NCBI RefSeq assembly: GCF_900199515.1
Contig: NZ_LT963434.1
Coordinates: 933,272 to 965,271 of the forward strand
Length of the DNA stretch: 32,000 nt
Direction of reading: 5' to 3'
Source: Massilicoli timonensis
Lineage (GTDB): Bacteria; Bacillota_I; Bacilli_A; Erysipelotrichales; Erysipelotrichaceae
The translations under genes were made by a program, and so were the position numbers. Shown one piece after another: positions 4,682 through 8,030 of the stretch. The notes under the pieces were generated by a model, which saw nothing but the letters and a program-made list of their open reading frames with translations, made no database searches and was not told the origin of the DNA. Position 1 is the stretch's first letter, and every line of letters starts with the position of its first letter.

Positions 4682-6436
4682 ATGACGAATTTTAGACAGA
4701 AACATTTGATCCTGCCTGCGGCTGTTTCCGTAGGCGTTCTGCTGCTGTCAAACTTAACAGCACTACAATCTGGACACTTTTTGGACATGCAATTGAACGG
4801 AGGTGTTTCTTTTTTCCCTTTTGCTTATCTGGCCGGCAGTTACCTTGCCAAAGCCAATGACAGCCGAATGGTCAAAAGTGTGTACTTGATTGCTTTCACA
4901 GCACAGCTTGCGGTAATTGTGAGCGCGTGGTTGTTGAAGATAGAGGAGAATAGGCTGTGGCTGATGGGAACGCTCCTATGCGCTTATCTCGCCGCAAATT
5001 TCCTCAATGATTGGTTCGTTCGCAGACAAAATCCTCTGATGCTTTCATTTGCACTGTCTCAGCTATTGGCGGTCGCAGTGTTTGGCGTGATCGGTATATC
5101 TGTACTTTTTTCACCAAAAGAAGTCCTCTTTACCGTTTTTATCAATTATGGAGCCGGTATCCTGCTAAGTCTGCTTTGTGTATGGATCGTATTTATGATC
5201 GGTAAATCTGTTCAAAGAAATCGAGATACGTATCAAAATGATAACCGCTTTTATTTTGAAATTACACAAAAAATACCGGGTAAATTGGGACGGGCCGGAA
5301 TCATCCACACGCCTCATGGCGACATCCAAACACCGGCTTTCATGTCAGTAGGCACCAAAGGCGAAGTACGCTTTCTCTCGATGGAGGAATTAAAAAGCGT
5401 CGGTGCCCAGGCTATGCTCAGCAATGGCTATCATTTGCGCAACCGTTCTGTTGAAATTGCGAAACAGGGTGGATTGGCAAAATGGTCCGGTTGGGATGGC
5501 CCTACTTTAACAGATTCAGGCGGCTTTCAGGTAATGTCGCTGGGATCTGGCTTAGGCAAGGTCGTCAGCATGGAGCGGGAAAAAGAGGTTGTCAATACTG
5601 ATCCAAAAGATCGCCTTACGACCGTAAGCGAGGATGGCGTACAGTTTGTGGATCCCTTCACCAATCAGCTTGATTTTATCGGCCCTGAAGAATCGATGCA
5701 GATCCAGTGTCGCATCGGTGCTGATATTCATATGGCATATGATGAGCTTACTTCACTGGCGGACAGTTATGAATACAATGTCGAAGCGCTGGCAAGAACG
5801 GAACGATGGGCGGTACGCTCCTTGAACGAGCATGAAAAGCACTGCGATGATCTTGGCTATCATCAGGCGCTCTATGGTGTGATCCAAGGAGGCAGATGGG
5901 AAGATCTGCGGCGTTCTACCGCTAAAAAATTCGCGAAAATGAACTTTGACGGCTATGGTCTAGGAGGCGCCTTCTTAAAAGAAAACTTAGGTGATATCCT
6001 GCGCTGGTGCAACGAAGAACTGCCGGAACAAAAACCGCGCCATTTATTGGGATTGTCGCGTCCTGATGATATTCTCATCGGTACGGAAATGGGTGCAGAT
6101 ACCTTTGACTGTGTTGCACCGACAAGAGAAGCACGACATGGCCGCATTTATACCAAATACGGAAATATCAATATCAAGAAATTCGCGGACAGCGATGAAC
6201 TCCTGGATGAACACTGTGATTGTCCTACTTGCAAGGCCGGCTACACACGTTCTCAGCTGCGTGCTTTATTGAAGTCAGAAAATCCTGAGGAGCGCAGTCT
6301 CTACTTCAAATTAGCATCTATGCACAATCTGCGTTTCATTATTCGTTTAACTGAAGAAGCGCGTGAAGCAATCATCCAAGGCAACTTTGCAGAGTATAAA
6401 GAACGTTTTTTACGCGATTATTATGGACATCGATAA
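4682..6436 (+). CDS. tgt: Fusion protein: YhhQ/VUT-like (COG1738/DUF165-like) 6-TM domain plus tRNA-guanine transglycosylase (queuine tRNA-ribosyltransferase family) domain
   Basis: 584 aa. Residues ~8-178 form six hydrophobic helices with 'LLLSNLTALQ', 'FFPFAYLA' and 'AANFLNDWFVRR', resembling E. coli YhhQ. Residues ~189-584 are collinear with bacterial Tgt: 'HTPHGDIQTPAFMSVGT', 'LTDSGGFQV', 'YDE', 'GVIQGG', 'FDGYGLGG', 'TFDCVAPTREARHG', and the Zn site 'CDCPTC...H'. The TGT call is strong; the membrane-domain family call is moderate. Confidence 0.85.
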   Translation: MTNFRQKHLILPAAVSVGVLLLSNLTALQSGHFLDMQLNGGVSFFPFAYLAGSYLAKANDSRMVKSVYLIAFTAQLAVIVSAWLLKIEENRLWLMGTLLCAYLAANFLNDWFVRRQNPLMLSFALSQLLAVAVFGVIGISVLFSPKEVLFTVFINYGAGILLSLLCVWIVFMIGKSVQRNRDTYQNDNRFYFEITQKIPGKLGRAGIIHTPHGDIQTPAFMSVGTKGEVRFLSMEELKSVGAQAMLSNGYHLRNRSVEIAKQGGLAKWSGWDGPTLTDSGGFQVMSLGSGLGKVVSMEREKEVVNTDPKDRLTTVSEDGVQFVDPFTNQLDFIGPEESMQIQCRIGADIHMAYDELTSLADSYEYNVEALARTERWAVRSLNEHEKHCDDLGYHQALYGVIQGGRWEDLRRSTAKKFAKMNFDGYGLGGAFLKENLGDILRWCNEELPEQKPRHLLGLSRPDDILIGTEMGADTFDCVAPTREARHGRIYTKYGNINIKKFADSDELLDEHCDCPTCKAGYTRSQLRALLKSENPEERSLYFKLASMHNLRFIIRLTEEAREAIIQGNFAEYKERFLRDYYGHR

Positions 6437-6471
6437 GCGTCTATTCGTATCATGCGAATAAACGCTTTTTT
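6436..6471 (+). terminator. Rho-independent terminator of the fusion gene
   Basis: AGCGT-c-TATTCG-tatcatg-CGAATA-a-ACGCT followed by TTTTT. It starts at the stop codon. Confidence 0.8.
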
Positions 6472-6625
6472 ACTAACCGATTTGTGATAAGAAATGATCA
6501 TTACGATCAGCAATCGCATTGGTCTTTTTTCTACATTCCTAACAAGATCAAGAATGCGCTTTGAAAGACTACCAACGCACGCATCAAAATACGCGCTTAT
6601 TATCCAATCTGCTCCTTTTGCATAG

Positions 6626-6677
6626 AAAAAGATCTTTCTTTGAAGCCTGTTTATCAACCAGCCTCAAGAAAGACCCT
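6626..6677 (-). terminator. Terminator of the alpha operon (after rplQ), possibly bidirectional
   Basis: Minus strand: GGGTCTTTCTTGAGGCTG...CAGGCTTCAAAGAAAGATC, an imperfect stem with G-U pairs, followed by TTTTT (6630-6626). On the plus strand the same stem is followed by TTTTTTT (6677-6683). Confidence 0.65.
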
Positions 6678-6681
6678 TTTT

Positions 6682-7047
6682 TTATTTTACAAATTCAACG
6701 ATTGCCATAGATGCTGCATCGCCGCGGCGTACTCTTGTCTTGATGACGCGAGTATAACCGCCGTTACGCTGTGCATACATCGGCGCGATTTCATCAAACA
6801 GTTTCTGAACAGCTGTCTGTCCGGTTTTTTCATTGGCAACAACATCGCGAACGAAGCTTGCCACCTGACGGCGTGCATGCAAATCGCCACGCTTAGCAAG
6901 TGTTACCAATTCATCTACAACGGAACGCAGTTCTTTTGCTTTCATTTCTGTTGTTTCAACCTGTCCGCTGATGATCAGTGATGTTGCTAGATTACGGAAC
7001 ATCGCTTTGCGGTGGTCGGCTGTACGTCCTAATTTACGATTCCACAT
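6682..7047 (-). CDS. rplQ: 50S ribosomal protein L17
   Basis: 121 aa, '[22 protein letters not shown]'. GGGAGG lies 9 nt upstream. Last gene of the alpha operon. Confidence 0.97.
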
Positions 7048-7070
7048 CGTGAATAACCTCCCTTATCTCA

Positions 7071-8030
7071 CTATTCGTATGACTTAAAGCTCAATCCTAA
7101 GTCATAGATCTTGTCTTTCACTTCTTTCAGTGATTTTTTGCCTAAGTTTCTAACTCTCATCATTTCATCTTCTGTACGCTGCGTTAATTCTTCTACCGTC
7201 TGAATGCCGGCACGTTTTAAGCAGTTATAACTGCGTACAGAGAGATCAAGATCTTCAATCATCATTACCAAGCCTTTATTTGGAACTTCACCCTGCGCTT
7301 CTTTCATCACTGAATCCATGTCATTCACTTCTTCATGAACATGAGTCAGTAGTTCAAGGTGATCGACCAGGATCTTAGATGCCAGTGCGATTGATTCCTG
7401 CGGCGTGATGGATCCGTCCGTCCAGATTTCCATCGTACATTTATCATACTTCGCGTTCTGTCCAACTCGTGCTGGCTCTGCGTTATAGGAAACCTTTTCG
7501 ATCGGTGTATAAATAGAGTCGGTATAAATCGTGCCAAGCGGTTGGTTCTGGGTTTGATACAGCTGTTTGTTTGTATCGGAGCTCACATAACCGCGACCTA
7601 CGCGCGCCTGTAATTCCATTTCCAGAGATCCGCCTTCCGCTAAGGTACAAATGTGCAGATCCTTGCTTAAAATCTCTACGCCCTCAGGGCAGATAATATC
7701 AGCACCGGTTACGACACCCGGTCCTTTTTTAGAGATACGCAGTGTATAAACTTCATCATCCTGAATGGTCATGATCAACTTCTTGATATTCAAGATGATT
7801 GCCGTAACATCTTCTACGATGCCCGGAATCGCGGTAAATTCATGGTAAACACCATCTACCTTGATTGCAAATACAGCTCCTCCGGGTAAAGAGGATAACA
7901 GAACACGTCTTAACGCATTACCGATCGTTGTACCGAATCCTCTTTCCAAAGGTTCGATGACAAACTTTCCATAATGCTCATCTTCAACATATTCCTTTAC
8001 TTCAAAATGTGCACGTTCGAATTTCTGCAT
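7071..8030 (-). CDS. rpoA: DNA-directed RNA polymerase subunit alpha
   Basis: 319 aa, 'GFGTTIGNALRRVLLSSLPG', alpha-CTD 'SVRSYNCLKRAGIQTVEEL'. GGAGG RBS. Confidence 0.98.
   Translation of the reverse strand: MQKFERAHFEVKEYVEDEHYGKFVIEPLERGFGTTIGNALRRVLLSSLPGGAVFAIKVDGVYHEFTAIPGIVEDVTAIILNIKKLIMTIQDDEVYTLRISKKGPGVVTGADIICPEGVEILSKDLHICTLAEGGSLEMELQARVGRGYVSSDTNKQLYQTQNQPLGTIYTDSIYTPIEKVSYNAEPARVGQNAKYDKCTMEIWTDGSITPQESIALASKILVDHLELLTHVHEEVNDMDSVMKEAQGEVPNKGLVMMIEDLDLSVRSYNCLKRAGIQTVEELTQRTEDEMMRVRNLGKKSLKEVKDKIYDLGLSFKSYE

What the first reader, a model, noticed from the sequence alone, without database searches (positions are those of the whole stretch)
5546..6060. The TGT domain keeps its catalytic and Zn residues, but the base-pocket motifs differ from preQ1-type enzymes
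Retained:
- Asp in 'LTDSGGFQV'
- Asp in 'YDE'
- 'VIQGG'
- nucleophile Asp in 'TFDCVAPTR'
- Zn site 'CDCPTC...H'

Changed relative to the canonical bacterial motifs I recall:
- 'FDEC' becomes 'YDEL' (Cys to Leu, nt 5741-5749)
- 'GGL[AS]VGE' becomes 'GGAFLKE' (nt 5963-5983)
- 'YLMGVG' becomes 'HLLGLS' (nt 6041-6058)
- an insertion of ~22-26 residues, 'SGLGKVVSMEREKEVVNTDPKDRLTT', follows 'FQVMSLG' (nt ~5546-5623)

In Z. mobilis numbering, Cys158, Leu231/Ala232, Val233 and Met260 line the preQ1 pocket. Cys158 and Val233 are the positions reported to distinguish preQ1-type (bacterial) from queuine-type (eukaryotic) enzymes. A pocket altered at all of them suggests a different substrate base, such as queuine, preQ0 or something else. 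This would fit the fusion to a transporter. The residue numbering is from memory.
Basis: partly seen in the sequence, partly recalled or inferred. Interest (0 to 1): 0.6.

Follow-up and report, generated by a model that had tools for sequence, protein, structure and literature searches.

The report
Remodelled-pocket tRNA-guanine transglycosylase for direct salvage
This gut bacterium's only tRNA-guanine-swapping enzyme has a rebuilt base pocket and sits in a genome lacking every enzyme needed to finish queuosine on tRNA, so it most likely inserts a ready-made scavenged base (probably queuine), as already predicted, but never tested, for its relatives.

Summary
A proper alignment to Z. mobilis TGT confirms the catalytic Asps, Gln203, the Zn site, Cys158->Leu, YLMGVG->HLLGLS and a 22-residue insertion. 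One detail needs correcting. The GGxxVGE loop is not substituted one-for-one. It is three residues shorter (GGAFL, then the helix), so the Gly234-Glu235 pair, invariant in 48 canonical Tgt, is gone.

The pocket is invariant across 43 orthologues read from 21 genera of the same family. In sampled genomes the variant excludes queA (1 of 44) and queH (0 of 44). Relatives with a canonical pocket have both (44 of 44 and 36 of 36). The window's genome has no other TGT and no queA, queC, queF, queG or queH.

The variant clade is sister to the tgt-only Actinomycetota type (FDELT/GGALEK/HLLGIS). It shares Leu158, HLLG and the insertion with the Chlamydia-type TGT, which the literature reports to insert queuine. 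It lacks that type's hallmark Gly at Val233.

Best reading: a direct-salvage TGT, most likely for queuine (about 0.55). The substrate is untested. Tgt-only bacteria, the GGALE pocket and the YhhQ-TGT fusion are already in the literature. This scan also noted a similar yhhQ-tgt module on other DNA. Interest is moderate.

The parts
4682..6436 (+). Whole gene: a YhhQ-like membrane domain fused to a TGT, 584 aa. It is the only TGT in the genome.
4682..5233 (+). N-terminal membrane domain (aa 1-184), a degenerate QPTR/YhhQ (Vut_1) relative.
   Evidence: Vut_1 at E 0.003 and 18.3 bits, below the 27.2 cut-off. The same domain in the fused homologues P0003/P0004 scores 119-123 bits. It is 24-34% identical to the upstream YhhQ gene or domain of orthologous loci.
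5288..6424 (+). TGT catalytic domain (aa 203-581).
   Evidence: Pfam PF01702 at E 2.6e-107. AF2 model pLDDT 93.3. VIA-align Z 51, rmsd 1.5-1.6 A to Z. mobilis TGT.
5513..5527 (+). DSGGF: Asp278 (=Asp102) and Phe282 (=Tyr106, the base-stacking residue).
5549..5614 (+). 22-residue insertion after SLGS. It is conserved in the clade as GxGK[VI]V[SAN]M..N....R[LF][AT].
   Evidence: Model confidence is low here (pLDDT 59-74). Insertions of 18-55 residues at the same site occur in Chlamydiae, Actinomycetota and CPR types.
5738..5749 (+). YDEL: Asp354 (=Asp156) and Leu356 in place of Cys158.
5885..5887 (+). Gln402 (=Gln203).
5963..5980 (+). GGAFLK: the shortened pocket loop. It replaces GG[LT][AS]VGE(S/P)K and has no Gly234-Glu235 equivalent.
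6041..6058 (+). HLLGLS in place of YLMGVG (Tyr258->His, Met260->Leu, Val262->Leu, Gly263->Ser).
6107..6109 (+). Asp476 (=Asp280, the nucleophile), within TFDCVAPTR.
6215..6325 (+). Zn site: Cys512, Cys514, Cys517 ... His548.

Best explanation
The gene encodes the cell's only tRNA-guanine(34) transglycosylase. It belongs to a distinct bacterial TGT lineage with a rebuilt 7-substituent pocket:
- Leu for Cys158
- a loop three residues shorter that lacks Gly234-Glu235
- His/Leu/Ser for Tyr258/Met260/Gly263
- an insertion after the Asp102 strand

The enzyme most likely exchanges G34 of tRNA-Asp/Asn/His/Tyr directly for an imported, finished 7-deazaguanine base, most probably queuine. No on-tRNA maturation would then be needed. 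The base is brought in by a QPTR/YhhQ-type transporter. In most orthologous loci that transporter is encoded next to tgt or fused to it.

What is shown: the residues, their conservation, the gene content of the genomes, and the family placement. What is inferred: the tRNA substrate, the identity of the base, and which of the two YhhQ-type proteins does the transport in this organism.
For: 1. Catalytic apparatus intact. Asp102, Asp156, Gln203, Asp280 and the Zn ligands are present. The score is above the Tgt equivalog cut-off. The fold matches Z. mobilis TGT at Z 51.

2. Purifying selection on the new pocket. [FY]DELTS, LGGAFLK, HLLGLS and the insertion are invariant in 43 orthologues from 21 genera, at 70-84% overall identity.

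3. No downstream pathway in this genome (97.4% complete). One TGT was found. No queA, queC, queF, queG, queH, Qng1, IU-nucleoside hydrolase or QueT was found.

4. Natural experiment within the family.
- queA: 1 of 44 variant genomes against 44 of 44 canonical genomes, one per genus.
- queH: 0 of 44 against 36 of 36.
- queG: 0 of 44 variant genomes.
- queF: none over the cut-off in either group, so both groups are salvagers.

5. The same pattern across phyla. queA was over the cut-off in 1 of 22 genomes with the short-loop/HLLG type, against 24 of 26 canonical genomes. All 9 genomes with FDEL lack it.

6. The clade is sister (support 0.94) to the Actinomycetota type FDELT/GGALEK/HLLGIS. PMC11130926 predicts that type to salvage queuine because those organisms lack QueA and QueG/H.

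7. Leu at Cys158, HLLG and the insertion are shared with Chlamydiae TGTs. The C. trachomatis enzyme is reported to insert queuine, and BL-TGTs have Leu at that site (PMC12301720; PMC11570991).

8. Cys158->Val alone raises Km(preQ1) from 0.9 to 16 uM without affecting guanine (PMC3660597).

9. No preQ1 riboswitch was found at 16 loci, including this gene and the genome's second yhhQ.
Against: - The validated queuine-type enzymes (eukaryotic GGLSGGE, Chlamydia-type GGS[LM]GK) have Gly where Val233 sits. This clade has Leu or nothing there, and bulky Phe next to it.
- In the only published model of the sister GGALE pocket, queuine lies 1.8 A from the motif. That looks like a clash (Fig. S1 legend of PMC11570991).
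- Bartonella shows that a tgt-only organism can insert preQ1 and stop there.
- The genome has no known enzyme to free queuine from queuosine.
- The relation to the Chlamydia type is not resolved in my trees, so the shared features may be ancestral or convergent.
- No coordinates were available, so nothing was docked.
Confidence: 0.55

Rival explanations
1. It inserts preQ1 (or preQ0) taken up by YhhQ and leaves it unmatured in tRNA, as proposed for Bartonella henselae.
For: E. coli-type QPTR/YhhQ carries preQ0 and preQ1. Bartonella has only tgt and yhhQ and uses preQ1. Bulky Phe/Leu in the loop, and the 1.8 A queuine distance in the sister-type model, suggest a pocket that may be too tight for queuine.
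Against: Bartonella keeps the canonical GGLAVG pocket, whereas this pocket is rebuilt and then frozen. An aliphatic residue at Cys158 costs preQ1 affinity. Gly234-Glu235 is missing; Glu235 supports the Leu231/Ala232 peptide flip that exposes the carbonyl to preQ1. No preQ1 riboswitch was found.
Confidence: 0.22
2. It inserts a different, so far unassigned base (another 7-deazaguanine derivative or queuine-like vitamer). This would be specific to the FDELT / GGA[FL]xK / HLLG[IL]S subclade of Erysipelotrichaceae and Actinomycetota.
For: The pocket matches neither published signature, GGLAVG for preQ1 or GG[LS][AS]G for queuine. The subclade is well separated and lacks all known tailoring enzymes.
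Against: There is no positive evidence for any other base. No conserved third gene accompanies yhhQ-tgt in 43 loci. Queuine is the simplest finished base available in the gut.
Confidence: 0.15
3. It is a decaying or repurposed TGT with no role in tRNA position 34 modification: a relic after loss of the queuosine pathway, or an enzyme acting on another nucleic acid.
For: The pathway partners are lost. The window's transporter domain is degenerate. Fragmented tgt genes are known in some tgt-only lineages.
Against: All catalytic and Zn residues are kept. Identity is 70-84% across 21 genera with an invariant pocket, and only one of 45 copies carries a stop. It scores above the Tgt equivalog cut-off, with DpdA at 20.6 bits against a 200 cut-off and archaeal TgtA at 130.5 bits against a 350 cut-off.
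Confidence: 0.05

Closest known systems
Actinomycetota tgt-only bTGT (e.g. Williamsia/Gordonia WP_062795755, Rothia, Arthrobacter, Mycolicibacterium; the Nakamurella 'GGALE' type of PMC11570991 Fig. S1)
   Same: Sister clade with support 0.94. Shares FDELT, the short loop GGA[LF]xK, HLLG[IL]S, an insertion of 22-33 residues at the same site, and absence of queA.
   Different: Loop GGALEK against GGAFLK. Not reported as fused to YhhQ. Different phylum. Also uncharacterised biochemically, with queuine salvage only predicted.
Chlamydia-type bacterial TGT (BL-TGT). The C. trachomatis TGT plus QPTR pair performs direct queuine salvage (Yuan et al. 2019 PNAS, as cited in PMC11570991 and PMC12301720).
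   Same: A tgt plus yhhQ pair only, with no QueA/G/H. Leu at Cys158, an HLLG motif, an ~18-residue insertion at the same site, and no Glu235.
   Different: The Chlamydia type has GGS[LM]GK, with Gly at the Val233 position and Gly263 kept. Here the loop is GGAFLK and position 263 is Ser. The phylogenetic link is unresolved. I could not read the C. trachomatis sequence or the 2019 paper itself.
Canonical bacterial Tgt (Z. mobilis, E. coli; preQ1-inserting)
   Same: Same fold (Z 51, rmsd 1.6 A), 37-38% identity, same catalytic Asps, Gln203 and Zn site.
   Different: Cys158, Gly234-Glu235, Tyr258, Met260 and Gly263 are all changed or missing. There is a 22-residue insertion. The genomic partners queA/queH are absent.
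Eukaryotic QTRT1 (human 6h45; crab XP_050687663 = P0216)
   Same: Both have an aliphatic residue at Cys158 (Val against Leu) and Phe at Tyr106.
   Different: QTRT1 keeps the full-length loop GGLSGGE with Glu235, keeps Y[CV]MGVG, and has no insertion. It groups with canonical Tgt in the trees. This is a different structural route to an altered pocket.
QPTR(YhhQ)-bTGT fusion proteins of Erysipelotrichaceae listed by Quaiyum et al. 2024 (Copranaerobaculum intestinale A0A6N8U7W4, Faecalicoccus acidiformans A0A7W8D4S3, 615 aa)
   Same: Same architecture, family and length class. My hits of 599-665 aa with PF02592+PF01702 are 60-64% identical.
   Different: That paper lists them only as evidence linking QPTR to TGT. 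I found no pocket analysis there. The window's copy has a shortened, degenerate transporter domain.

Membership tests
Bacterial tRNA-guanine(34) transglycosylase (Tgt, TIGR00430 / PF01702) | Profile score above the curated equivalog cut-off | tested here: met
   332.8 bits against 306.75. Pfam E 2.6e-107.
Bacterial tRNA-guanine(34) transglycosylase (Tgt, TIGR00430 / PF01702) | Catalytic Asp102, Asp156, nucleophile Asp280, Gln203 | tested here: met
   D278, D354, D476 and Q402 align to them.
Bacterial tRNA-guanine(34) transglycosylase (Tgt, TIGR00430 / PF01702) | Zn site CxCxxC...H | tested here: met
   C512, C514, C517, H548
Bacterial tRNA-guanine(34) transglycosylase (Tgt, TIGR00430 / PF01702) | TIM-barrel TGT fold | tested here: met
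   AF2 pLDDT 93.3. Z 51, rmsd 1.5-1.6 A over 366 residues to Z. mobilis TGT.
preQ1-type bTGT pocket | Cys158, GG[LVT][AS]VGE with Gly234-Glu235, YLMGVG | tested here: not met
   Leu356; a GGAFLK loop three residues shorter; HLLGLS.
preQ1-type bTGT pocket | Genome encodes QueA and QueG or QueH to finish Q on tRNA | tested here: not met
   None found in the own genome. 1 of 44, 0 of 44 and 0 of 44 in clade genomes.
Queuine-type TGT (eukaryotic QTRT1 / Chlamydia-type BL-TGT) | Aliphatic residue (Val/Leu) at the Cys158 position | tested here: met
   Leu356.
Queuine-type TGT (eukaryotic QTRT1 / Chlamydia-type BL-TGT) | Gly at the Val233 position (published signature GG[LS][AS]G) | tested here: not met
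   GGAFLK has no Gly after GG. The position is either Leu or deleted, depending on the alignment.
Queuine-type TGT (eukaryotic QTRT1 / Chlamydia-type BL-TGT) | Inserts queuine into tRNA | not testable with these tools
   Needs complementation, an in vitro assay, or tRNA mass spectrometry.
Queuine-type TGT (eukaryotic QTRT1 / Chlamydia-type BL-TGT) | tgt-only genome, with a QPTR/YhhQ transporter | tested here: met
   A second yhhQ lies at G000:C4:1131956.
QPTR/YhhQ (PF02592 Vut_1), N-terminal domain | Profile score above the Pfam gathering cut-off | tested here: not met
   18.3 bits against 27.2. Homology is shown only through orthologous loci, where tblastn gives E down to 1e-17 and the domains score 119-123 bits.
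Archaeal TgtA / DpdA (preQ0-inserting relatives) | Profile score above the curated cut-off | tested here: not met
   TgtA 130.5 bits against 350. DpdA 20.6 bits against 200.

The most novel reading that the evidence does not exclude
The FDELT / GGA[FL]xK / HLLG[IL]S subclade (these Erysipelotrichaceae plus tgt-only Actinomycetota) is not a queuine or preQ1 enzyme. It would put a third, so far unassigned base at tRNA position 34. Its pocket lacks both the Gly that admits queuine and the Gly-Glu that supports preQ1 binding.
Probability: 0.15. Interest if true: 0.75.

Novelty: new variant of a known kind. Interest (0 to 1): 0.42.

Why it matters
Queuine is a microbiome-derived micronutrient for the host. 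Gut bacteria that consume it directly compete with the host for it.

This family offers a clean natural experiment. Sister genera in one habitat, all unable to make the precursor, carry one of two arrangements. One is tgt-queA-queH with a canonical pocket. The other is a yhhQ-linked tgt with a rebuilt pocket and no tailoring enzymes.

That makes the open question of what sets preQ1 versus queuine specificity in bacterial TGTs directly testable. Engineering Z. mobilis Tgt did not settle it (PMC3660597). Here one can compare a pocket that reaches the same genomic state as Chlamydia by a different structural route.

If the base turned out to be neither queuine nor preQ1, it would be a new tRNA wobble modification in common gut and skin bacteria.

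Tried and rejected
- Docking or pocket geometry. Structure prediction returns no coordinates to the script box, so preQ0, preQ1 and queuine could not be placed. Only loop lengths from DSSP were compared.
- Reading Yuan et al. 2019 (PMC6754566) and the 2024 MMBR review (PMC10966956). Neither is held. Their claims are cited second-hand through PMC11570991, PMC11130926 and PMC12301720.
- Fetching the C. trachomatis TGT itself. This was not possible. Two environmental Chlamydiae MAG loci (L083, L087) and a choanoflagellate BL-TGT (P0243) stand in.
- preQ1 riboswitch search at 16 loci. Nothing reached the gathering score.
- Search for a conserved third gene next to yhhQ-tgt in 43 loci. None was found beyond within-genus synteny.
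FastTree local supports were used instead. Deep branching among HLLG-type lineages is unresolved, so I do not claim they form one clade or name a donor for a transfer.
- The idea that HLLG alone marks the tgt-only type was rejected. A Margulisiibacteriota genome has HLLGVG with a canonical loop and queA.
Phe is the commoner bacterial residue.
Full report
**What is there.** The finding lies inside one ORF, 4682..6436 on the + strand, 584 aa. Residues 203-581 are a full TGT domain: Pfam PF01702 at E 2.6e-107, and NCBIfam Tgt equivalog at 332.8 bits against a 306.75 cut-off. Residues 1-184 are a multi-helix membrane domain that only faintly matches the YhhQ/QPTR family (Vut_1, E 0.003, below the cut-off).

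**Checking the observation.**
- Asp102 = D278
- Asp156 = D354
- Gln203 = Q402
- Asp280 = D476
- Zn ligands C512/C514/C517/H548

It also confirms three of the changes:
- Cys158->Leu356 (YDEL, nt 5738-5749)
- YLMGVG->HLLGLS (nt 6041-6058)
- a 22-residue insertion after SLGS (nt 5549-5614)

Tyr106 is Phe. That is the commoner bacterial residue and has no kinetic effect (PMC3660597).

**One correction: the pocket loop.** Multiple alignments with relatives put a three-residue gap there. Two AlphaFold models agree:
- A canonical relative from the same family has eight residues (GGTSVGES) between the strand and the following helix.
- The window protein has five (GGAFL), and the helix starts at the Lys.

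The residue after that Lys is E, S, D or K among orthologues. So the Gly234-Glu235 pair is absent here. That pair is invariant in 48 of 48 canonical sequences. Glu235 supports the Leu231/Ala232 peptide flip that distinguishes guanine from preQ1 binding (PMC3660597).

**The changes are selected, not drift.** I sampled 297 genomes of the same order. The TGT domain splits them into two sharply separated classes.
- 45 genomes, all in one family (the window's genus plus 21 others), hold a 70-100% identical copy.
- Every other match is 41-47% identical and canonical.

In the 43 variant copies I read, several motifs are invariant: [FY]DELTS, LGGAFLK, PRHLLGLS[HR]PD, TFDCVAP[TS]RE, the Zn motif and the 22-residue insertion. 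Twenty canonical relatives have FDEC, GGTSVGE, YLMGVG and no insertion. Tyr258, Met260 and Gly263 are 100% conserved in 98 canonical-type sequences. Each is replaced by a different, 100% conserved residue in the variant clade.

**Genomic context.** The window's genome is 2.5 Mb, 97.4% complete. It has this one TGT and no queA, queC, queF, queG, queH, Qng1, IU-nucleoside hydrolase or QueT. It does have a second, canonical yhhQ elsewhere.

Across the family the pattern is almost perfect:

| Gene | Variant genomes | Canonical genomes |
|---|---|---|
| queA | 1 of 44 | 44 of 44 (one per genus) |
| queH | 0 of 44 | 36 of 36, usually in a tgt-queA-queH cluster |
| queG | 0 of 44 | not searched |
| queF (over cut-off) | 0 of 44 | 0 of 36 |

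Both groups therefore live on salvaged 7-deazaguanines. One group finishes Q on the tRNA and the other cannot. No variant genome holds a second TGT. These genomes are relatives, so the counts are not independent events. Even so, 21 genera against 44 genera without overlap is a strong pattern.

**Wider relatives.** A search of 1.8 billion representatives shows the variant is not a fast-evolving offshoot of the local Tgt (motif tables and trees). It groups with support 1.0 with a few metagenomic sequences. That group is sister (0.94) to the Tgt of Actinomycetota: Williamsia/Gordonia, Rothia, Arthrobacter, Luteococcus and Mycolicibacterium. Their motifs are FDELT, GGALEK, HLLGIS and an insertion of 25-33 residues.

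Related short-loop, HLLG, insertion-bearing types occur in several other groups:
- CPR bacteria, a DPANN archaeon and several proteobacterial lineages
- Chlamydiae MAGs (FDELP, GGS[LM]GK, HLLG[IM]G, 18-residue insertion)
- a choanoflagellate

Eukaryotic QTRT1 (LDDVV, GGLSGGE, YCMGVG) sits with the canonical enzymes. In 48 named genomes from many phyla, queA passes its cut-off in 1 of 22 with the short-loop type and in 24 of 26 canonical ones. All nine FDEL genomes lack it. Many of these are MAGs, so absences there are soft. The deep order of these lineages is unresolved in my FastTree trees, and I do not claim they form one clade.

**What the literature already says.**
- Tgt-only bacteria are a recognised class.
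- C. trachomatis TGT plus its YhhQ homologue salvage queuine directly (Yuan 2019, read only through PMC11570991, and PMC12301720).
- Chlamydia-type enzymes have Leu at Cys158 and Gly at Val233.
- The Actinomycete GGALE pocket was modelled with queuine, with a reported distance of 1.8 A, against 4.0 A for the GGSLG type (PMC11570991 Fig. S1 legend).
- The YhhQ-TGT fusion in two Erysipelotrichaceae species is listed in Table S1 of PMC11130926.
- Bartonella shows the opposite case. It is tgt-only, with a canonical GGLAVG pocket and preQ1 use.
- In Z. mobilis Tgt, Cys158Val alone raises Km(preQ1) eighteen-fold without touching guanine.

**Most likely mechanism.** The enzyme is an active G34 transglycosylase. 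Its 7-substituent subpocket has been rebuilt so that it takes a finished base, which removes the need for QueA and QueH. Queuine is the simplest candidate. It is available in the gut, it fits the gene content, and the Cys158->Leu change is shared with the validated queuine enzyme. Shortening the loop may open the space that Val233 blocks in preQ1 enzymes. This is an inference from loop length, not from geometry.

Against queuine:
- There is no Gly at the Val233 position.
- Bulky Phe and Leu sit in the loop.
- The published model of the sister type is tight.
- No known queuosine hydrolase is present.

My estimates are: queuine about 0.55, unmatured preQ1/preQ0 about 0.22, another base about 0.15, no position-34 role about 0.05.

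**The transporter.** In 29 of 44 variant genomes the only Vut_1 gene lies directly upstream of the variant tgt or is fused to it. Nine have only an unlinked yhhQ like the window genome's second copy. Six have none detected. Fusion is seen in 13 of 45 copies, in five genera.

The window's fused domain is about 30 residues shorter than its counterparts and only 24-34% identical to them, while the TGT domain is 80-85% identical. So the fusion supports a transporter-enzyme module in general. In this organism, though, the fused domain may no longer be the working transporter.

**Novelty.** The kind (tgt-only, direct-salvage bTGT), the sister pocket motif and the fusion are all published as genome observations. 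Three things are added here:
- the correct anatomy of this pocket: a three-residue loop deletion removing Gly-Glu, plus His/Leu/Ser replacements and Leu158
- its strict conservation
- its clean mutual exclusion with queA/queH inside one bacterial family

No member of the Erysipelotrichaceae/Actinomycetota subtype has been tested biochemically, as far as I could find. Earlier notes of this scan describe a similar yhhQ-tgt module with a divergent Tgt on other DNA (e1-2685160) and a tgt-yhhQ operon in a methanogen (e1-5211197).

Noticed in passing
window 4682-5233, and G000:C4:1131956-1132468 (L002:1303-2094): The fused N-terminal YhhQ-like domain is shortened and degenerate (Vut_1 18 bits), while orthologous domains score 115-141 bits. 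The genome also holds a second, unlinked canonical yhhQ (90.8 bits) next to a metallophosphoesterase gene. The fused domain may have become a mere membrane anchor.
   Followed up: partly
G218:C12:119675-120691 (not a locus): This is the one variant-TGT genome of 44 with a queA above the cut-off (278.7 bits). It has no queH or queG. It could be a relic, contamination (2%) or a transitional state.
   Followed up: no
G303, G304, G306 (genomes of L074, L075, L077, Solirubrobacterales): These genomes have a short-loop HLLG-type TGT and encode QueA-like proteins far below the family cut-off (133-146 bits against 267). This may be a divergent QueA paralogue of unknown role.
   Followed up: no
L116 (Margulisiibacteriota MAG) and L095 (Patescibacteria MAG): Mixed-feature TGTs. 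L116 has HLLGVG with a canonical GGLSVGE loop, no insertion, and queA present. L095 has HLLGIG plus a 19-residue insertion with a canonical GGVAVGE loop. The features of the tgt-only type can therefore occur separately.
   Followed up: partly
P0137 (Candidatus Aenigmatarchaeota MAG, MFH8092798.1): A DPANN archaeon carries a bacterial-type TGT of the short-loop HLLGIG class (FDECT, GGSLGK, 23-residue insertion). This echoes the methanogen tgt-yhhQ note of this scan.
   Followed up: no
L055 (G068:C1:58450-67643): In this genome the yhhQ and variant tgt pair sits between two rRNA operon segments (23S end at 1-1194, 16S at 6437-7972). The module's location is not conserved between genera, and no third gene travels with it.
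   Followed up: partly
G174:C11:9893-11089 (L023): This is the only variant tgt copy of 45 with an in-frame stop (one TAA) inside the match. It may be a pseudogene or a sequencing error.
   Followed up: no
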